This document shows positions 7,670 to 63,129 of a stretch of 64,000 nt of DNA, in pieces; the first letter of the stretch is position 1; each line of letters opens with the position of its first letter. The position numbers were made by a program, and so were the translations under genes. The DNA is from Octopus vulgaris (Eukaryota), in contig OX597822.1 in NCBI GenBank assembly GCA_951406725.2, positions 50,034,001 through 50,098,000 on the forward strand. The letters are read 5' to 3'. Below the pieces are notes generated by a model, which searched no databases, was not told where the DNA came from, and saw only the letters and a list, made by a program, of their open reading frames with translations.

Positions 7670-8800
7670 ATTGAGTAACTGCTCAACACTTTCTTTCAGA
7701 GTGTCTTCACTGTAGAGAAAGAAGACGATCTACCAGACATGCTACCGTACACGTATGACACAGATCTAACCAACTTAAACATTTCTGTGCAACAAAATCA
7801 CTAGCAGCCGACAAACTTGAAGATTGCTAATGCGCCATGACCGGATTGACTCAGCCTACGCATACTTTCCGAGGTATCGGATCTACTCACTCTGCCAATC
7901 ACAATTGTCTACAGAAAATTAATGGAGACAAGCAAAATCCCAGACGAGTGGAGAACTGCTAACGTCACTCCCATATTCAAGAAATGGAACCGTCTTGCGG
8001 TCAACAAGTACAGGCCAGTAAGCTTGACCTGCGTACTGTGCAAGCTGATGGAGGTGCATTGAGTACCTGTGGCGAAATGACCTATTTCAACCAAGAACAG
8101 CATGGGTTCACAAAGGGGAGATCATGTGTGACTCAGCTGCTTGATGTTATTGACATCTCGTCGGAAGCTTTGGATGCAGAGGGAGAAGTCGATGCGACCT
8201 TCATGTATTACTTAAAAGCGTTCGACAGCGTCCCACATCGTAGGCTTGTTGCCAAAGTAGAAGCTCACGGTATCAAGGGAAATGTCCTTCAGTGGATCCA
8301 GTACTTCTTGAGCCACCGGTCACAACGAGTCTGTGTCAACGCTGTGAAATCAGAGAGGGAAGAGGTGAAAGGTGGCATCCCACAAGGCAGTGTCATTGGT
8401 CCAATACTGTTTCTCATGTATAGAAACGATCTGCCTCGGCATGTCCAGAGCCACGTCACAAAGACGACACAAAGATCTTCTCAAAGAATGACGTTGATGT
8501 GACCATGGCAACGCTGCAAGACGACCTGGATCGCCTTCACAAGTGGTCGACGAACTGGCAAATGCGGTTCCATCCTGAGAAATGTTCCGTCTTGAGGTTG
8601 GGGAACACGAAGATGGACAGGAAATACTACATGAGAGGCCAAGATGCACAGAGCAAACTGACTGTGGTGGAGCTAGCAGAATGTGAGGTGGAGGGGGATT
8701 TTGGCGTCTTGATCGACAAAGGGCTGACCTTCAGGAACCACAAAAAGCAAATCGAATCCTTGGAGTCATCTGACGATCTCACCCCTGTTGTACAAGTTTT
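7670..8800 (+). pseudogene. CR1-like non-LTR retrotransposon reverse transcriptase fragment
   Basis: W.TANVTPIFK, YRPVSLT, QHGFTKGRSCVTQLL, KAFDSVPHRRL, GIPQGSVIGPILFL, LQDDLDRLHKWS..WQMRFHPEKC. Multiple frameshifts; the catalytic (Y/F)ADD region is deleted. Confidence 0.9.
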
Positions 8801-8823
8801 GAATTTAGCGGTCAATCATGGCG

Positions 8824-8947
<124 letters not shown>

Positions 8948-9119
8948 CACCCTACGTCATTAACTGGTTCCAGGAAACACGAGTTAAGTCGAATTTATTT
9001 ATCTCCAGGCTCAACCGATAGTAACCATACCGAATGCTGTACTTTATTTGGGAATGCATTGTCAATAATACGTGGTTAATACAAACCTACTTTAAGCTTA
9101 GAAACAGATAATGTTTTAA

Positions 9120-14822: not shown

Positions 14823-14893
14823 TGAAAGTTACTTTAGAAATTCTTCTTTATCTGAAATAGTCACAACTGTAATGATGCATACATACGTGTGTA

Positions 14894-14925
<32 letters not shown>

Positions 14926-15277
14926 TGTGTGTGTGTGCGTGCGTGTGTGTGTGTGTGTGTGTTGTGTGTGTGAGTAAATAGCTGGTTACTTAGTGACTAT
15001 GTTGACAAAACAGTTAAGTGAAGAATAATCACAAGGGATTTAAATGTGAAATATCAAGTCTTAATACGGCGACTTATTCCAAAAAACGTCCGAAATATGT
15101 ATGAAAAAAAAAGTACAATTTACAGTAACTCATTTATTTGATCGAGAAAAAAAAAAGGCGTCTATCTCTGTATAAATTTTTTTCCTGACCTGAAAGTACC
15201 TTTAGAAATTCTTTTTTATCAGAAATCGTCACAACTCTAATGATGTATACATACGTGTGTGAGTAAATAGCTGGTTA
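14823..15277 (+). repeat. Dispersed direct repeat pair (14823-14988; 15191-15277)
   Basis: Shared TGAAAGT..TTTAGAAATTCTT..GAAAT.GTCACAACT.TAATGATG.ATACATACGTGTGT...GAGTAAATAGCTGGTTA. Confidence 0.85.
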
Positions 15278-15510
15278 TGACGCTAAAGACAGGAAGTTCA
15301 AACGCAAGAAGTTGAGAAAACAATTTGAAGAAGTGAATCTTTATATACAGGGCAATATTATCTATTTTTAAGGAAAAATATCAAGACCGTATTATTCTTT
15401 CCAAGGTCAAATTATTCATGTATATAAGTATGGTAGAGTTTGAACCAGATGTTTGGGATAGCATTGATGACACACACACACATACTGGGTATTTTATATG
15501 TTAAGATATA

Positions 15511-15543
<33 letters not shown>

Positions 15544-18034
15544 GTGTGTGTGTGTATATATATATATATATGCAAACACAAATTTCGTCAGTCGATCATA
15601 CATCCAGAAAAGAAGAACACTCGAAACGTTAAATCAGTAATGTAATTAGAGGTAGTTAGTTATACGTCCGTTCAAGTGAACAATAGCTTCGTATCCATAA
15701 AGTGCACAGCGTTATAGAAAGGTCGTCGCACTCTAATGGCCGCGGACGTATAATTTCTTTTCAAAATGGAAATACCAAAAAAATTATGGTGAGTTTTAAT
15801 TTTGTGTTGTCGGTATATATTTTGTCGAACAATCGAGTTCGTATAGCTCCGTATCATCCGAGAGACGGTGGCTTTCGTGATTATGTAGATGCGTGCAGCC
15901 GGCGGATGCATATTACGTTGTGGACTTTTGTAAGACACATTGTGTCTAGTTCGCATAATGGATATCATATATCATCCATCAAAGTTGCACGATGTCGTTC
16001 ATCAGATGATTTTCAACAATGGTTAGCTGCTGAATTCGTCTCTCGCAATTTTGTTAATTTTCTTACTAGCTGTGTATAAAACTTACAAGCAACTCACGCA
16101 CGCAAACAGAGACACATACAAATCTATGAAACATTTACATCGTCTTAGTTAAATATTCATGATGGAAGTCACTCCTCAATTGAAAAGCTTTAATACAATC
16201 AAATATTACGTCGAAGCTGAAGATCGCGTTATGTGCTGCCAGTTATTCGTATCCAGATAGATGATTGTACTGCACTTGTGTTACAATAATTATACATACT
16301 TTAACGCATTCCAATTCCAGTGCAACTTTCTTGCAGAGCATTTGAGTTAATACCTCTTTTCCTTTTAATACGAGGATAACATCAAGCAGACTCTTGTTTG
16401 GAAGTTTATATTCGGTATATTTACCTTTTCCGTTAACAGTTATGTTATTGGGAAAGAAGATAGTCCCTCGCCTAAATCACAGCTCAGTGATCGTGTAGCC
16501 TCTCCTATTCATATTTTCTCACAGATAATTTGAGGTTCAGAAAATCATGAAATCCATATCTATATATTACAGACAATGCTGTGAACCTCATTTGATAAAA
16601 TATTAAGTTAAACAGAAATTGTACTAAATAGAGTTTACTCGTAAGAAACATGATGAATGAAATATAACATTAGACGTTTTTAATTGTTATATATGTGTAA
16701 TTGTCATAAAGAAATATTGATGTTTCGAGTCCAATTACCTCTGGAAATTTGGGTTGTTATTGAATCATTGAATTTGTAAGGCTGCTGTGCCCTCAAATAT
16801 TTTACGTTTATATTTTGTTTTAAATTATTTAGTAGAATCATATTGTCATAACTATTTTTCTGCAAGGAGTAATGACACTCAAATAACCAGTTTTGATAAA
16901 GCTAGTTATCTTATAAAATATCGCACCAGAAAATTAATGCCGGAACTTTACGAAATACTACTTTTTTATGAGAAACTGAACTAATACTTATTCTGCTGGA
17001 AATCATGTAAGTTTTTTTTTCTTTCAACTTGAATGGGTTTTGTATCCAATAATTATCTGCCTTCCTCGTATTTGGAAAATATATTCACTTAGAGATTACA
17101 ATATCATGCAACAAGAATTTTAAAATGATTTTTTAAAAATATGTCAGTATCTGAATTCGGTTTACAATCTGGAAGAAATCAGTAAGATCCGGAAAAAAGC
17201 GAAATATATTGTGCTACTGAGTTGTGTTACAATCTTGTAATTGACATGACAGCAACTCCATTTTGAATTCAGCTTCAAAAATATCCATTTTTTTCTTTTG
17301 TAGAGATAAACACCATTTACTCAAGTTTGCAAGAAAATGAGGAAAACATGTTGCAATATTCGAGGGCTATGTTCTGTTTGTTACTTTGCCGTATAACCAG
17401 GATTTATGATCGATAAAATATCCCAAATGATTTTACCGTACTTCAAGCATTCCTACATGAATATTCTCTGAAGATAATCGAGTTTTTTAAGTAACACCTT
17501 TTGAAGACAATCCATATCTTCACATAAGACTTAAAAAGGGGAAACGCAATCGTAATGGTCGAGATTCTCTAAAACTGATAGCCGGCATTGTATCTTCTTG
17601 AAACCGACATTTCTTGCTTGAGAGATCATATGCTTTTGTTTCTATCTTTAAACAATGCAGTTATTACTGTTACAGATGTTTTGAGATATTTTTGATTCGT
17701 GTTACAACGCAGGCTATTTTTGTTTTATCTCTTGTTTTATCCCTGCCTAATGCAATATACTTATCCCGTATTGTATCCTGCGTTTCATAAAATTTCCAAA
17801 GCAATTACATTTTACTTCTCATCATATGTATTGCAGAAATTCTGCAGGAAAATTAATTTTATTTTGTTGCAAAAATTATTTCGAAGACGCACAATTAACA
17901 TTCAGCAACATCTTTGTATTTATCTCTTTTTATTTATTGATATCTCTCTCTCTATACATATATATATATATATATTTAAAAAATATAAATATATGAAAGA
18001 ATGGAGTTGCACGACGAATTAACAAAATTCCTTT

Positions 18035-18119
18035 ATTTTCGACATATGTTTCGAAGGCTGCATATTCCTAATTGCGAAGGAATAAGGAGTACATTATGCC
18101 GCTTTCTCATCAGGAAAAT
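18035..18119 (-). ncRNA. Type I hammerhead ribozyme in inverted pLTR
   Basis: Reverse complement of 21733-21817 with complete CUGAUGA/GAAA/GUC core. Confidence 0.85.
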
Positions 18120-18508
18120 CAAGGAACATATGTCAATATCAAAATGCACAAAACACTTTTAGATGATTGCTCACACGGAGCCCATAGCGATAATGAGTGT
18201 CTCTTTAACATATTCCTTTATAAGGAGTGACTCCTTATTCCTTCGCAATTAGGAATATGCAGCCTTCGAAACATATGTCGAAAATAAAGGAATTTTGTTA
18301 ATTCGTCGTTCAACTCCATTCTTTCATATATTTATATTTTTAAAATTAACATATAAATTTCCACACGAAAGCACGTAATCTATGCCCTAGGCACGTAACT
18401 TCAACCGTGTTTTTTCTGATGTGAATTTGCTACCCAGGTATCGGTTAATTCGAATTATCCTTAATAAGATAATTCATTCAACTACTCAAATATTCATATA
18501 CAGCCTCC

Positions 18509-21134
18509 TTGAGATCCTGCTACCTTAACCGATACCGCAAATGGTTCGAGATTAACGCATCCCATAAGGACATACCAATACCACCAAAAGAAACCTTCCT
18601 TCAGGAAATTGTTAACAAAACAAATGCATTCATCAACCGAATTAGATGGCTCGCTGTCTTCCATGATAATGAGGACATAAAACAGAACGGTACCGAAACA
18701 TCTTCCGAATATAAGAAGTTATTCAAGTCGAGGGAAACCCCTCCACCTAATCCCAGACTGAAGAAATTCGACGACGACCTGTGGGACATTGTAAGGACCA
18801 TTAAATTCCGTAAATCGCCCCTTAGGAATAAACACCTTAGATACCTCAACAAAGTCACCAAAGATATAAACAGTTTAGACGCTATACTGGTCCAATCAGA
18901 TAAAACCAGGAACACATATAAGCTAGCAAAAAACCAGTATTTAGAAATGCTCAAGAAAGAAATACAGAAGAATTACAGAACAACAAATAAGAATACACTC
19001 AGACAAGCCAACTTGGAAATTAAGAAAATCATGGAAAAGTATGGATTACAAATGAAAACACAACCGCTGAACCCAAGACAACCAAGATTCATCGTCAAGG
19101 ACCATAAACCAAACTTTCACACCAATCCATCTTTAAGGCTCATATGCCCCTCTAGTTCCGACATCGGTTCCATTAGTAAGTACATTTTAGATAAATACAT
19201 ACCCAGATTAATCAATAAGTTAAAACTCAACATATGGTCTAACTCCACTCAAGTCGTAGAGTGGTTTTCTTCTATTTCTAATAAAAACAGCACAAAATTC
19301 ATTCAATTCGATATTTCTAGTTTCTACCCTTCGATCAACCCTATAGCACGCACATAATAAGGCAGGCCTCCCAAGGGAGGAAATTAATAGAATTTTTAGC
19401 GGCTAGAAAATCCTTCATACAGTTCGATGATAAGTTATGGGTCCGTAAGGATACCCCCAACGCGTTCGATGTGCCAATGGAAAGCTTAGACAGCGCCCAG
19501 ATAGCCGATTTGGTCGGAATCTATATTCTCTATGAATTAGCCGACCAATTCCCCGACATCTGCAGCGGTCTGTATCGAGACGATTGTCTATTTTATCTAC
19601 TGAATGCTCCGAACATTATGATACAGAAGACTAAAAACAGAATGGGCATGAGCATAGTTTTCGACGACGAACTAACTAAAGCTAACTTCTTAGATGTTAC
19701 CCTAAATCTGCATAACAATTCTTACTTCCCTTACCATAAGCCTTCTACTAACCTTAAATATGTCAGCATCTTCAGTAACCATGCAAAAGCTATCACCGTT
19801 AATTTAGTTAAAAATATATCCTTAAGACTATCAAATTTATCTGCGAATGTCGACATTTTTAAACAAAAAGCGGAATTTTATAATGCCGCCTTGTCAAAAG
19901 CCGGTTATAAGGATAAGGTATCATATATCGACCCGGCCCATTCTAAACTAATATTTGCTTCTCAGGATAAGAAAACTAATAACAATAGAAATAATGTAAT
20001 TAATGATTTCAGCTCTAGCAACGTCGACACTAATATAATTAACAAAAATAATTTACGGACCAAGGGGGGCAATCGAAAACCAACATCAATTCTACAACAC
20101 ATAAATACTCCCTTTAATGTAAATGTTAATACTCTGAGCCATTCTAAGTCCAAAAAAACTATATCTGGTTTGTCATTCCTTTCGGGAAACAAATCAGGTC
20201 TAACCTCCCTTTACAGTTCCGTGAAGCCGTAGCTAGGAACTTTCCCAGGAATTCTAGTTATTACTCTACTATCAATTCGCATAAGGTGAGGATTGCATTC
20301 TCCAACACTAGAAATCTATAGCAGATAATTGCCTCCCATAATAATAAGCTGCTAAATAAGGAATCATGACCCAGGAGTAGCGACACTGCACTTACCAATT
20401 CCAACATAACATACAATAATAATAATAATAGAAATAGTATTGATATTAGCAACATTCATAGCAGCATTGGCGTTAACAATAGTAATAATGATAATAACAT
20501 TAGCCAGATTATTAACAGTGGTGGTGTTAGTGGTAATAGTAACAGCATTTCTAATAACAGTTGTATTATTGATGATAACAATCACAGCATTCCTATAGTC
20601 AGAGAAATTGCCGACGATATTACAATTAATAGTAATGATAATAAGATGAATAGTAACGTGGCCAATGCTAGCAACAATATTTACACCTATCATAACAATA
20701 AAAACTCTGTCTTAGTATCGGAAGTTAACCCCAACAGATTAAAGTTCTTATCCAAAAATTCCAAAATTAGAAACACCATTTACCAGTGCAAAACTTCTTC
20801 TGGAACCGATGTCTTCTACATTGGAGCAACTACTTCTAAATTAGCTCAAAGGATCTCCAATCATTATTCAACTGTTCGAGATAAGAGAAAACAACACAGC
20901 ACGGGACTAAGTAAACTAGTTTGGCGTCTGAAGGACAGCAATACAACTTTCAAGCTCGAATGGTCCATATTGTCGGTGTCCTTTCCGTTTGATAAGGGCA
21001 GAAAACTTTGTGGCATCTGTAATTCCGAACTTTTTAATATTTTGTTCGCCAAAGTCCCTTTAATAAATACAATCGTCGAGAGGTCCTACAGGAGCATGCA
21101 CTGGCAAAAACACACCTTTCACTCATATGAATAA
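18509..21134 (+). pseudogene. PLE polyprotein: reverse transcriptase + C-terminal GIY-YIG endonuclease, disrupted
   Basis: KDHKPNF..LRLICP; QFDISSFYPSI; PMESLDSAQIADLVG; GLYRDD; NFLDVTL; YIWFVIPF (after frameshift ~20155); TIYQC...FYIGATT...QRISNH; CGICNSE. Deletion/frameshift ~19340-19390 and stops ~20320 and ~20367. Confidence 0.92.
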
Positions 21135-21732
21135 TGATTAATATAGATAACCCCTTGAATTTTAATTAATATAACTTTTTTTTTATATATGTCACCCCCA
21201 TAGTCATAAAAATTGTTTATACTTTCAAAGAACTACTACCCAATCCAGTGAAGTATGTGTTGCCTTAGTCCCCCTACCTCGCCCTCCTCATTGTCTCTCT
21301 TTCTCTCTCTATTTCCCTCTTTCTATAGTAAGCACAATCAAAGACACAGACACAAACTTCTCACCTCACCACTATCTGTTTTCTGACATCTACCCATCCA
21401 CATACACAATCACGCACACACATACACAAACACACACATCAATGCAGTTATATAAAGTCACACACACAGGCACTCATTCACAAAAGAAATTAACAAAATC
21501 CACCATTCATATGACCTGCACCCTTTCACCTTCCTATTCTTATGCCTCTCTCCTCCAACTTCGTTTGAACCCTTGAACCTTTAGAGCTTTCTAGAATCGT
21601 CTACATTCAACCATTTTGACATCATTCCTTATAAAGGAATATTTTATAGAGACACTCATTATCGCTATGGGGTCCGTGTGAGCAATCATCTATAAGTTTT
21701 TTGTGCATTTTGATATTGACATAAGTTCCTTG

Positions 21733-21817
21733 ATTTTCCTGATGAGAAAGCGGCATAATGTACTCCTTATTCCTTCGCAATTAGGATTATGCAGCCTTCG
21801 AAACATATGTCGAAAAT
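21733..21817 (+). ncRNA. Type I hammerhead ribozyme in 3' pLTR
   Basis: Stem I ATTTTC/GAAAAT; CTGATGA 21739-45; stem II GAAAGCGGCATAAT/ATTATGCAGCCTTC; GAAA 21800-03; palindromic stem III ACATATGT; predicted cleavage after GUC at 21811. Confidence 0.9.
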
Positions 21818-22016
21818 AAAGGAATTTTGTTAATTCGTCGTTCAACTCCATTCTTTCATATATTTATATTTTTAAAATAAACATACAAATTTCCACACGA
21901 AAGCACGTAATCTATGCCCTAGGCACGTAACTTCAACCGTGTTTTTTCTGATGTGAATTTGATACCCAGGTATCGGTCAATTCGAATTATCCTTAATAAG
22001 ATAATTCATTCAACTA

Positions 22017-22020
<4 letters not shown>

Positions 22021-31235: not shown

Positions 31236-31653
31236 CCAATACAGGCCCATTCCCTAATTTTAATTTTATTATCTTCATTTATTACTTTTGTTATCTTTGA
31301 TCGCTAGAGCTAAGGATCCTGGCTATGGCAGCATGTCCATTTGTCTGTCTACTAGAAGGCAAGTACTCATTCCCGCACGCACACTCATTAGCACGTACAT
31401 TCACCCATTCGTACACTCATACACATACACGTACGCACGCGTTATATTCATACGTACAAACATCTACATACGTTCACGTATATACACATACGTACTCGTA
31501 CCTACAGATTCGTGTCTACACTTTAGGAGGCCAGTCTATACATATACACCAATAAATATACACATATATAAATATATATACGCATATACATACACACACA
31601 CACACATATACTCCTACATACAGATACATACCTATACATATATATATATATAT

Positions 31654-31696
<43 letters not shown>

Positions 31697-31904
31697 CATA
31701 CATACACATACACACATATATATACACACACATACATACACATATATATACATACACAAACATATATACACACATATATATATATATATACACACATACA
31801 CACACATACATACATATACATACAAACACATACATACGTATACATACATACATACATCCATACATCCATACTTACATGCATTTATACGCATACACACACC
31901 CCCA

Positions 31905-31939
<35 letters not shown>

Positions 31940-32491
31940 TCACACATACATATACAAATATACGCACACACATACATACATACACGTATACACATACACG
32001 CACATACACATATACATGCGTACCCATACACGTGCACACACGCACGTGCATCCATATATATACACACACACACATATATACACGTGTGCAAGCATACATA
32101 CATACTCATACACGCACACATACTTACATATACATATATGCACACACTTACACACATATATATATACATACACATATACATGCATACATACATATATGCA
32201 TACATACACATACACGCACATACATGTATGTATGCATATATGTATGTATGCATGTATATGTGTATGTATATATATGTGTGTAAGTGTGTGCATATATGTA
32301 TATGTAAGTATGTGTGCGTGTATGAGTATGTATGTATGCTTGCACACGTGTATATATGTGTGTGTGTGTATATATATGGATGCACGTGCGTGTGTGCACG
32401 TGTATGGGTACGCATGTATATGTGTATGTGCGTGTATGTGTATACGTGTATGTATGTATGTGTGTGCGTATATTTGTATATGTATGTGTGA

Positions 32492-32528
<37 letters not shown>

Positions 32529-32738
32529 TGGGGGTGTGTGTATGCGTATAAATGCATGTAAGTATGGATGTATGGATGTATGTATGTATGTATACGTATG
32601 TATGTGTTTGTGTGTATATGTATGTATGTGTGTGTATGTGTGTATATATATATATATATATGTGTGTATATATGTTTGTGTATGTATATATATGTGTATG
32701 TATGTGTGTGTATATATATGTGTGTATGTGTATGTATG

Positions 32739-32775
<37 letters not shown>

Positions 32776-33193
32776 ATATATATATATATATGTATAGGTA
32801 TGTATCTGTATGTAGGAGTATATGTGTGTGTGTGTGTATGTATATGTGCATATATATTTATATATGTGTATATTTATTGGTGTATATGTATAGACTGGCC
32901 TCCTAAAGTGTAGACACGAATCTGTAGGTACGAGTACGTATGTGTATATACGTGAACGTATGTAGATGTTTGTACGTATGTATATAACGCGTGCGTACGT
33001 GTATGTGTATGAGTGTACGAATGGGTGAATGTACGTGCTAATGAGTGTGCGTGCGGGAATGAGTACTTGCCTTCTAGTAGACAGACAAATGGACATGCTG
33101 CCATAGCCAGGATCCTTAGCTCTAGCGATCAAAGATAACAAAAGTAATAAATGAAGATAATAAAATTAAAATTAGGGAATGGGCCTGTATTGG

Positions 33194-34086: not shown

Positions 34087-34560
34087 TAAAACAACGTGTT
34101 TAGCCATTTATTTAACGGCCTGAAACGTTACACTGCAAACTGGTATGGTTCAAATATATTGAGACTTCATTCCTCCTCTCGAGGCAGTTCTTCTTTCCTT
34201 TTATGTTACAAAAGATGACGAATATTATTCTTAGAATTTTCTTTTGCAACACTGCGAGATATTGGAAGCAAAAATGCCTGTTAAATGGGATGATATTTTG
34301 CATTAAAATGCTCAAAGAAGAATAATCGAGAGTAGTCAATTTTCGTTGATCAAGATTTCTCTATTTTCTACTTAATTTGAATTTGATTCCTGATAAACGT
34401 TTATCGTTGTCATTGCCTATATCCTATGAGCATAATACGTTTGCATATATATGCCCAGGATTAGCATAGGTAATTTACATCGGTATAAAAACGATATTAT
34501 TATCCCCTACACGCTTATTCCAACCGCTAACTCTAATTTATATATGTATTAATATATATA

Positions 34561-35263
34561 TAAATTCTGTTTTTAAATGACTTGCTTTGAAGTTTTGCAT
34601 TCGGTAAAATTTGTATAATTTAGTAGTTTTGACTGTCAAGGTCCCTCCTAGCGTGCGGTAGCTATGAATAATAGTACCCTCTATATAATATAAATAAATA
34701 ATTTCAAAGTGGAAAAATTTACAGATTTTTTCTCTTACGAGGTTTTTCACGCTAACTACTGATAATTTCTTATAAAGATTTTATCCTTAATTTTAAATTT
34801 ATATTTTTCACCAGAATAGTTCAATACTAAGTTTTGTTCCGAATAGGCAAATTGTTACCGAAATGCATTGCGAATAAGCCCGCCATTTTCATAGATATGT
34901 AAAGATAAACATTCGTACATGCTACGATGAATTCTACGGTTGGCTGTCGGGTAAGCTATCTTGTGTTTTTTCTTACATGTCTTGAGTTCGTTGCACTGAA
35001 GAGCATAGAATGCATATTCTGCATTGGTTGCGAAATCACAGGTGATATGTAACTAAATTCTGTTTTTAAATGACTTGCTTTGAAGTTTTGCATTGGGTAA
35101 AATTTGTTTATTTTAGTAGTTTTGACTGCAAAGGTCCCTCCTAGCGTGCGGTACCTATGAATAATAGTACCCTCTGGAAAAATTTACAGATTTTTTCTCT
35201 TACGAGGTTTTTCACGCTAACTACTGATAATTTCTTATAAAGATTTTATCCTTAATTTTAAAT
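34561..35263 (+). mobile_element. Retrozyme-like non-coding element: 493-bp unit + 210-bp partial repeat
   Basis: 34561-34798 repeats at 35054-35263 (28-bp indel); HHR immediately precedes the second copy; TA runs on both sides. Confidence 0.8.
34990..35053 (+). ncRNA. Type I hammerhead ribozyme, intact core
   Basis: Stem I GTTGCA/TGTAAC; CTGAAGA 34996-35002; stem II GCA/TGC extended by AATGCA/TGCATT; GAAA 35032-35; stem III ATCAC-AG-GTGAT; cleavage after AUA at 35047. Confidence 0.87.
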
Positions 35264-35276
35264 ATATATATATATA

Positions 35277-35568
35277 ATAGTGAACCTTTAAACACAAGAA
35301 AAACGGCCCTCAACAGGCAGTTTTACATGCTAGAAGAAGTAGTCAAAACGACCAAAACCATATTTTAGAGCGAATTTTTAAAGGGAATGAAAATGAAATA
35401 ACAGTTACCTTGTTATTTTATTCCGGTCAAAATAAAAAGGTAAATGTTTATACTTTTCATTCCCTTTAAATATTGCTCTTAAATGTAGTTTTAGTCGATA
35501 GACCACTTCTTCTAACGTGTAAAACTGCCTCTTGAAGGCAGTTTCTCTTGTGTTTAATTGTACACTAT
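35277..35568. mobile_element. ~290-bp imperfect palindrome (MITE/foldback-like)
   Basis: Arms pair along the whole length: TTAAACACAAGA/TCTTGTGTTTAA, AGGCAGTTTTACA/TGTAAAACTGCCT, TAGAAGAAGT/ACTTCTTCTA, TTTAAAGGGAATGAAAA/TTTTCATTCCCTTTAAA; centre ~35424. Confidence 0.85.
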
Positions 35569-35820: not shown

Positions 35821-35883
<63 letters not shown>

Positions 35884-36008
35884 ACAAAATAAGGGCAAAA
35901 GAAAAATTCTAATTCCAAATATGCCGAAAAAAAGACAAAAGTTATCAATAACCATTATAATTTATGCGTCTCGAAACAAACCGATAGAAATTTCTAAAAA
36001 ATCCGTTA

Positions 36009-36069
36009 TTACCATATTGGTTCCAATTTCGGGATTAATTCATAAGAATGTTCCCCTCTTCAGCGATAA
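36009..36069 (-). ncRNA. Type I hammerhead ribozyme
   Basis: Minus strand: TTATCG CTGAAGA GGG(GAACATTCTTATGAATTAAT)CCC GAAA TTGG-AA-CCAA TA TGGTAA; stem I relies on two G.U pairs. Confidence 0.75.
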
Positions 36070-36387
36070 ATACGTGAGATATAAGTGAAATACTTACTCA
36101 TAACCATGGAAAAAGCAAGTACTAAGTCCTGAACAGACCTAAGTACCCCACATATATCCAAAATAGAAAATCTTCGGCACATCTCGAGACACGTGTGATT
36201 CAAACTAGAAATTTTCATAGAGTGAGAGAATACGGGAGTGAACACTATTAAATTTATAACTAATGTAGGATAATTATTTTTTCGGGAAAAAATTTTTATC
36301 AATGGCCAGCATATCAAAAAATACCTTTAAAGGTTGAATTTATAATTTACAAAATAAGGACAAAAGAAATTTCTAAAAAATCCTTTA

Positions 36388-36449
36388 TTTCCGTATAGCT
36401 CCCAATTTCGGGGTTAATTCATAAGAATTTTTCCCTCTTCAGCGATAAA
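36388..36449 (-). ncRNA. Second HHR copy, stem III degenerate
   Basis: CTGAAGA GGG..AATTC/GAATT..CCC GAAA TTGGGAGCTA TA CGGAAA. Confidence 0.5.
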
Positions 36450-36483
36450 TACGTGAGATATAAGTGAAATACTTATCATACCC

Positions 36484-36540
<57 letters not shown>

Positions 36541-58255: not shown

Positions 58256-58765
58256 ATTTCATTAAATTTATCCACTTTTTGTGTATCTAGTACTTGCTTC
58301 TTCTTTTAGAGGCCTTTTAATGTACTTATATATGAATAACATATAGACTAACGACTAATTTGTCTTTTGTGCTAGATCACTGGTAATAATAATTTATTTT
58401 ATTACCCTCTTTACTATATTTACATATTACTCGATAAATTTGCTCGTATACCTTATACCGGCATCCTCTCTGTTCGCCGAGTATGTTTTGCGTCTGCGCA
58501 CTGGTCTGAAAAGTTAGAGAATGCAAGTCGGTAGAATCGCACATGATTCTAACGATATGTACTTCTAGGATAACAAAGGCTGCTTACTGAAGAGTCTAGC
58601 CTTGGCAGATAAATTATATTTTTCTGCTAAAAAAAAGACGAGACTGCAGTATAAGATGAGCCGAGTTTGTAAACGTTTTTGATTTTCATTTCATTGAATT
58701 TATCCACTTTTTTTGGATCTAGTACATGCTTCTTCTTTTAGAGGCCTTTTAATGTATTTACATAT
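58256..58765 (+). mobile_element. Retrozyme-like non-coding element: 432-bp unit + ~78-bp partial repeat
   Basis: 58256-58333 repeats at 58688-58765; HHR motif at 58583-58655. Confidence 0.72.
58583..58655 (+). ncRNA. Type I hammerhead motif with one core substitution
   Basis: Stem I CTTA/TAAG; CTGAAGA; stem II GTCT/AGAC + TTGGCAGA/TCTGCTAA; GAGA instead of GAAA (58640-43); palindromic stem III ACTGCAGT; GUA at 58649-51. Confidence 0.72.
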
Positions 58766-58992: not shown

Positions 58993-63000
<4,008 letters not shown>

Positions 63001-63129
63001 AATTTTATTTCTCTAGAATATAGATAAATCGTGGAATAATCTAAAATATGCCGTCTAAGTAGAATCAGTTAGATTTAGCACAGTTTTAATTGTAGAAAGA
63101 AATAGATTAGGGAGTGATTAAGTGAGAAA

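What the first reader, a model, noticed from the sequence alone, without database searches (positions are those of the whole stretch)
34561..35263. 1.4-mer whose 5' end starts 7 nt after its own hammerhead cut site
Seen: an intact HHR (34990-35053) predicts cleavage after 35047. The repeat copy begins at 35054, and the element's first base (34561) is the equivalent position one unit (493 bp) earlier. There is no meaningful ORF, and TA runs flank both sides. Inference: the inserted cDNA was copied from an RNA whose 5' end was made by self-cleavage, with more than one unit copied, as expected for a multimeric or circular template. This is the cleanest retrozyme-like candidate in the window.
Basis: partly seen in the sequence, partly recalled or inferred. 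Interest (0 to 1): 0.8.

Follow-up and report, generated by a model that had tools for sequence, protein, structure and literature searches.

The report
Hammerhead-bearing non-autonomous Penelope-like repeat
This is one decayed copy of a high-copy, protein-free repeat with a hammerhead ribozyme motif, likely spread by Penelope-like retrotransposons into TA runs; it is a known kind of element, and its start beside the predicted cut site is real here but was not shown to be a rule for the family.

Summary
A complete type I hammerhead motif lies at 34990-35053 (predicted cut after 35047), inside a 703-bp, 1.43-unit partial tandem with no real ORF and short TA runs on both sides. The first base is the 7th after the equivalent cut site. 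[quoted passage not shown] So it is a new member of a known kind: a non-LTR retrozyme, or non-autonomous PLE derivative.

The other elements start at about -93, +37, -49 and -189 from their cuts. Only 2 of 14 inversion-joint ends in this family lie within 15 nt after the cut (p about 0.07-0.26). A circular template does not predict a 5' end at the cut. The direct test failed because the tool masked the relevant junction and no genome was held. Cleavage and circular RNA are untested.

The parts
34561..35263 (+). Whole insertion (element A): 1.43-unit partial tandem with no ORF
34561..34798 (+). Upstream partial unit (pseudo-LTR-like), +7 to +244 from the equivalent cut site
34682..34709 (+). 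28-nt segment missing from the downstream copy; present in the family, so a private deletion in copy 2
   Evidence: high depth at 34701
34799..34989 (+). Non-duplicated body of the unit, upstream of the ribozyme; other copies also read through the junction at 34798/34799
   Evidence: records X1-5, X3-23; loose ends at 34832
34990..35053 (+). Type I hammerhead motif; predicted extensions of helix I (34984-35060) and helix II (6-bp hairpin beyond a 3x3 loop)
35045..35047 (+). AUA triplet; predicted self-cleavage after 35047
35054..35263 (+). Downstream repeat copy, ending at the family's fixed 3' end (+216)
   Evidence: loose ends behind 34804 with (AT)n
34552..34562 (.). 5' TA run; the last two bases are shared with the element start
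35262..35276 (.). 3' TA run, followed by an inverted-repeat (MITE-like) element from about 35278

Best explanation
This is a decayed copy of a dispersed, high-copy, protein-free repeat with a type I hammerhead motif, likely mobilised in trans by a Penelope-like retrotransposon (probably of the Hydra type). Shown: hammerhead pattern, 493-nt unit, partial tandem, high copy, a fixed 3' end 216 nt past the cut followed by (TA)n, and inversion joints in other copies. Inferred: the PLE endonuclease nicks a (TA)n target. The reverse transcriptase starts at the fixed internal site and copies leftwards through an intact hammerhead junction, on an uncut multimer or a ligated circle. It passes one full unit and stops; the cDNA end is joined to the target by a TA microhomology. 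In this copy the stop falls at the outer edge of helix I of the next ribozyme. That is most likely an ordinary truncation or a stall at the structure, not a family rule. The two repeats were probably identical at insertion and have since drifted by about 1.4% each. Self-cleavage and circular RNA are inferred from related elements only.
For: High copy: 1878, 2022 and 1475 contigs laid in X1, X2, X3; summed depth 4x10^3 to 3.6x10^5 across the element against 30-45 for the locus-specific contig. This suggests roughly 10^3 copies, but the tool states it is not a copy number. Fixed 3' end: loose ends behind 34804 reading (AT)n in X2 (26), X3 (14) and X5 (3). 7 of 9 joints are between opposite strands; the one I could orient (34681/35109) is head-to-head, the typical PLE arrangement (PMC8557442 and PMC3846280, passages). 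Same window: a broken PLE at 17967-22019 with YRDD, a GIY-YIG match (E 3e-4, just below cut-off), RWL, DKT, CxxC and a (TA)n 3' junction. These fit the Hydra clade, which has canonical hammerheads and inserts into (TA)n (PMC8557442 section 11). Copy differences at 34615, 34618, 34661, 35095 and the 28-nt gap each depart from the family majority in one copy only, while both copies share a minority A at 35100/34607. Other 5' ends are scattered. Hammerhead cleavage was not needed for insertion in vitro by the anole PLE, and reverse transcription started internally (PMC11167929).
Against: No sequence similarity between this unit and the window's PLE terminal repeat beyond shuffles (score 27 against a mean of 26.4; 79 of 200 shuffles as high), so the partner is not identified. 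The start lies exactly at the edge of helix I, which is unlikely by chance for one copy (1.4-3%), and 2 of 14 joint ends lie at +8 and +12. The family-wide 5' ends could not be counted: 34536-34565 was masked and 24 of 549 loose ends were shown. Six of the 7 inversion joints were assumed, not shown, to be head-to-head.
Confidence: 0.7

Rival explanations
1. Cut-defined 5' end (first reader, refined). The template is a linear RNA whose 5' end was made by self-cleavage. Either the internal hammerhead stayed uncut, or the enzyme started internally at +216 on a cut-to-cut monomer, ran to its 5' end, jumped to the 3' end of a monomer and copied it to its 5' end. That gives exactly a 1.43-mer with one re-formed hammerhead, trimmed to the TA at +7.
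For: The geometry fits exactly. A TA microhomology sits at +7/+8. Inversion-joint ends lie at +8 and +12. Internal initiation is shown for a PLE in vitro (PMC11167929).
Against: One copy only. 12 of 14 joint ends lie elsewhere, and four joints have one end upstream of the cut. Elements B and the PLE read through their upstream cut site. No pile-up at 35054 among the loose ends shown (incomplete and partly masked). PMC11167929 found no reads starting or ending at the cut site in its system.
Confidence: 0.2
2. Two separate events or a local DNA duplication: a short truncated copy with a full unit inserted at its 3' end, or unequal crossover after insertion.
For: The repeats differ by 6 substitutions and a 28-nt indel. 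PLE protein can nick AT-rich DNA in its own terminal repeat (PMC11167929).
Against: Other, diverged copies read through the same internal junction. There is no TA run at that junction. Both repeats share a minority allele.
Confidence: 0.07
3. Chance motif or assembly artefact.
For: Rfam finds no hammerhead; the hammerhead is not the minimum-energy fold.
Against: 0 of 200 shuffles give the strict pattern. The family is high-copy, and the 5' flank runs 21-27 nt into the element in contigs of three runs, below the tool's 31-letter rule for a bridge.
Confidence: 0.03

Closest known systems
Metazoan non-LTR retrozymes (Cervera and de la Pena 2020, PMC7229834; Li, Clavereau and Pollet 2026, bioRxiv 10.64898/2026.07.22.740005)
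   Same: Canonical type I hammerhead in a small, AT-rich, ORF-free repeat unit; many copies; coexists with PLEs, which both papers propose as the mobiliser.
   Different: The 493-nt unit is above the 150-450 bp of the first paper but within the 51-972 bp of the second. This locus has one hammerhead, so it fails the preprint's two-hammerhead criterion for 'active'. It is a dispersed partial tandem, not an array. Cleavage and circles are untested; only 1 of 9 predicted elements cleaved in the preprint.
Hydra-clade EN+ Penelope-like elements (Craig et al. 2021, PMC8557442)
   Same: Canonical hammerhead near the 3' end, (TA)n targets, partial tandem forming a pseudo-LTR, head-to-head 5' inversions.
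   Different: No RT or GIY-YIG ORF; no detectable similarity to the one Hydra-type copy in the window.
Non-autonomous Chlamys elements such as MRC1 (PMC8557442, passage)
   Same: Non-autonomous PLE derivatives that form pseudo-LTRs and head-to-tail copies.
   Different: Chlamys mostly lack canonical hammerheads, and those elements resemble their partners at the 3' end; no partner was found here.
Anolis Poseidon PAc (Frangieh et al. 2024, PMC11167929)
   Same: A fixed internal start of reverse transcription downstream of the hammerhead, and AT-rich targets, fit the fixed 3' end at +216.
   Different: PAc is autonomous, its ribozyme is protein-assisted, and cleavage was dispensable for insertion in vitro.

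Membership tests
Non-LTR retrozyme | Type I hammerhead with full core and three helices | tested here: met
   (own pattern scan; Rfam negative)
Non-LTR retrozyme | Small repeat unit, low GC, no protein | tested here: met
   493 nt; GC 0.29 in the 2-kb bin; longest frame 80 aa
Non-LTR retrozyme | Many genomic copies | tested here: met
Non-LTR retrozyme | Tandem copies with at least two hammerheads (criterion for an active element) | tested here: inconclusive
   One hammerhead at this locus, so not met here. Unit junctions exist in other copies, but dimers cannot be seen in short contigs.
Non-LTR retrozyme | Self-cleavage of the transcript | not testable with these tools
   folding only
Non-LTR retrozyme | Accumulates as a highly self-paired circular RNA | not testable with these tools
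   Circular fold -103.3 kcal/mol, z -2.0, 0 of 40 shuffles as stable, 60% paired; contigs cannot show circles
Non-LTR retrozyme | No LTR, primer-binding site or polypurine tract | not tested
   no search made; the repeat is a partial tandem
Non-autonomous Penelope-like derivative | Partial tandem forming a pseudo-LTR | tested here: met
Non-autonomous Penelope-like derivative | Fixed 3' end, variable 5' ends, microsatellite target | tested here: met
   Fixed 3' end at (TA)n in 3 of 4 runs; scattered joint ends. Flank-joined 5' ends were not counted.
Non-autonomous Penelope-like derivative | Head-to-head inverted 5' copies | tested here: met
   7 of 9 joints on opposite strands, 1 oriented as head-to-head
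Non-autonomous Penelope-like derivative | Homology to the terminal repeat of an autonomous partner | tested here: inconclusive
   None with the single PLE in the window; rest of the genome not held
Autonomous Hydra-clade PLE | Single ORF with RT and C-terminal GIY-YIG | tested here: not met

The most novel reading that the evidence does not exclude
In this family the hammerhead cut defines the 5' end of the retrotransposition template in vivo. Internal initiation on cut-to-cut monomers plus one template jump would build the 1.43-mer, which explains PLE partial tandems without a circle and gives the PLE hammerhead a traceable role.
Probability: 0.2. Interest if true: 0.65.

Novelty: new member of a known kind. 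Interest (0 to 1): 0.3.

Why it matters
As it stands this is another animal retrozyme family. Its value is as a test case. The role of hammerheads in endonuclease-bearing PLEs is described as unclear (PMC8557442, passage), and cleavage was dispensable in the one in vitro system (PMC11167929). A family with roughly a thousand copies, a fixed 3' end and one ribozyme per unit allows a simple genome-wide count of 5' ends that separates cut linear templates from circles or uncut multimers. Three such elements and a Hydra-type PLE in 64 kb suggest this genome is rich in them.

Tried and rejected
Exact 20-21-nt patterns found 0 matches in metagenome contigs, viral contigs and prokaryote genomes. The element has no second copy in the window.

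Expression: no RNA holder listed. Run X5 is only guessed to be RNA; it had 81 contigs laid, two of them (296 and 252 nt) across the cut site. This cannot tell uncut RNA, re-ligated RNA or DNA apart, and is not used as evidence. The empty-site and 5'-end tests failed because both TA junctions were masked; the table of pile-ups was empty, which contigs cannot fill.

My first constrained fold (8-12 kcal/mol penalty) forced a wrong inner hairpin and is superseded. A shared 3' motif between elements A and B was tested: 0.6% of window 23-mers score as well, which is suggestive at most; whole-unit alignments A-B, A-PLE and B-PLE are at shuffle level. Rfam microRNA-type hits come from TA runs and the neighbouring inverted repeat. 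No tRNA genes. The bacterial promoter scan is irrelevant and at chance level. A homologue search with the PLE's first frame gave 1 unnamed hit among 796 candidates. Earlier scan notes: none near this place or by sequence.

Full report
Setting. The window is AT-rich and full of TA microsatellites, as in an animal genome. It looks to me like an octopus, but that is recalled and was not tested. No whole genome is held.

Observation. The described structure is present. The segment 34561-34798 is repeated at 35054-35263, with 6 substitutions in 210 aligned bases and a 28-nt segment (34682-34709) missing from the second copy. Between them lies a type I hammerhead motif at 34990-35053, with the predicted cut after the AUA at 35045-35047. 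The strict pattern appears 4 times in the window and in 0 of 200 shuffles. Rfam misses it. A constrained fold gives extended helices I and II, 1.2-6.4 kcal/mol above the minimum depending on context; the free fold is not the ribozyme. The element starts at the 7th base after the equivalent cut. The 6 missing bases are the 3' strand of helix I, and the first TA is shared with the flank. The longest of 23 frames is 80 aa.

The family. I laid 4 of the 24 listed runs on 34380-35290. Three large runs each put 1475-2022 contigs on it, with summed depth 4x10^3 to 3.6x10^5 against 30-45 for the contig from the flank. This suggests roughly a thousand copies; the tool warns it is not a copy number. Loose ends behind 34804 read (AT)n in 3 of 4 runs, so the family has a fixed 3' end about 216-222 nt past the cut and sits in TA runs. 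Diverged contigs cross the internal junction at 34798/34799, so more-than-unit copies are not unique to this locus. Of 9 joints, 7 are between opposite strands, and the one that can be oriented from table 8 is head-to-head. The 5' flank runs 21-27 nt into the element in contigs of three runs under two organism codes; this is below the tool's 31-letter rule for a bridge, and one run may be the window's source. Among the 40 of 130 difference rows shown, four of the six substitutions and the gap depart from the family majority in one repeat only, and both repeats share a minority allele. The repeats were probably identical at insertion.

Neighbours. A broken PLE lies at 17967-22019 (+): three frames with RWL, DKT, YRDD, a GIY-YIG match and CxxC, a hammerhead at 21733-21817, a direct and an inverted 5' terminal repeat, and a 3' end in (TA)n. 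These motifs fit the Hydra clade (PMC8557442 section 11), though the CxCX5C linker was not found. Element B (35880-36486, -) and element C (58256 to about 58765, +; hammerhead read by eye, GAGA for GAAA) are further ORF-poor hammerhead partial tandems beside TA-rich DNA. A, B and the PLE show no homology beyond shuffles.

Is the 5' end made by self-cleavage? For: a start within 7 nt has a chance of 1.4%, or 5.6% for the best of 4 ends; within 15 nt, 3.0% and 11.6%. Two of 14 inversion-joint ends lie at +8 and +12. Against: the other 12 lie between -162 and +163, so p is 0.07 over the whole unit and 0.26 over the downstream part (six joints assumed head-to-head). The other elements start at about -93 (B), +37 (C), -49 and -189 (PLE), and the negative values mean read-through of the upstream cut site. 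No loose end at 35054 is among the 24 of 549 shown, but the equivalent place at 34561 was masked, so this test is inconclusive. A circle would explain the length but has no 5' end. A stall at helix I predicts the same boundary as a cut.

Mechanism. Best reading (0.7): a PLE protein acting in trans nicks (TA)n, starts at the fixed internal site, copies more than one unit from a template with an intact junction (uncut multimer or circle), stops near the next ribozyme and joins by TA microhomology. The anatomy is shown; the partner, the template form and cleavage are inferred. The refined first-reader model (cut monomer, internal start, one jump) gets 0.2, separate events or local duplication 0.07, and artefact 0.03.

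Comparison with the literature. Non-LTR retrozymes are described as type I hammerhead repeats expressed as circles and probably mobilised by PLEs (PMC7229834, parts 2-4 of 6 read). A 2026 preprint links them to PLE terminal repeats, and 1 of its 9 tested elements cleaved (10.64898/2026.07.22.740005, parts 1-3 of 5). Circles as templates for more-than-unit PLE copies were proposed in PMC4209133 (parts 1-2 of 4). Internal initiation and dispensable cleavage are in PMC11167929 (parts 1-2 of 4). Partial tandems, inversions and microhomology 5' junctions are in PMC8557442 (passages, outline, section 11) and PMC3846280 (passages). An Octopus vulgaris repeat annotation lists 31 recently active Penelope-like families in the table passage I saw and does not use the word ribozyme in its main text (PMC13282606, passages). 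Six searches (listings only, apart from the papers named) showed no paper on cephalopod retrozymes or on PLE 5' ends mapping to the cut site. The library is partial and no supplements were seen.

Verdict. A real element and a new member of a known kind; interest 0.3. The open point, whether 5' ends cluster at the cut, is one genome-wide count away.

Noticed in passing
window 17967-22019 (+): Broken Hydra-type PLE: three frames (RWL, DKT, YRDD, GIY-YIG), an asparagine-rich stretch between RT and endonuclease, hammerhead 21733-21817 with a long helix II insert, direct plus inverted 5' terminal repeats meeting at 18230, 3' end in a long TA run.
   Followed up: partly
window 35880-36486 (-): Element B: about 1.3-unit partial tandem between TA runs with two hammerheads (intact pattern 36069-36009; degenerate copy near 36448-36388), same AUA triplet, an 86-nt length difference between repeats. 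Starts about 93 nt upstream of its cut site.
   Followed up: partly
window 58256-58765 (+): Element C: 432-nt spacing partial tandem with a degenerate hammerhead near 58582-58656 (GAGA for GAAA, read by eye); starts about 37 nt after the predicted cut.
   Followed up: partly
window elements A, B, C and the PLE: All four direct 5' ends lie within 100 nt of the upstream hammerhead cut (+7, -93, +37, -49). This may reflect stalling at the ribozyme or the bias of finding elements by their direct repeats.
   Followed up: no
window about 35278-35568: Inverted-repeat (MITE-like) element directly after the 3' TA run; it causes the Rfam MIR8562 and MIR397 hits.
   Followed up: partly
window 34380-34535: The 5' flank is itself part of another repeat (summed depth 750-8000 in three runs).
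   Followed up: no
window 14823-15278: Direct repeat of about 70-100 nt at 368-nt spacing with a GT microsatellite expanded in one copy; no hammerhead core found.
   Followed up: partly
window 31264-33165: Large inverted duplication of microsatellite-rich sequence, seen as near-identical frames on opposite strands.
   Followed up: no
window 7963-8963 (+) and 59359-63027 (-): Decayed non-LTR retrotransposon reading frames (CR1-like and R4/Dong-like by recalled motifs, not searched).
   Followed up: no
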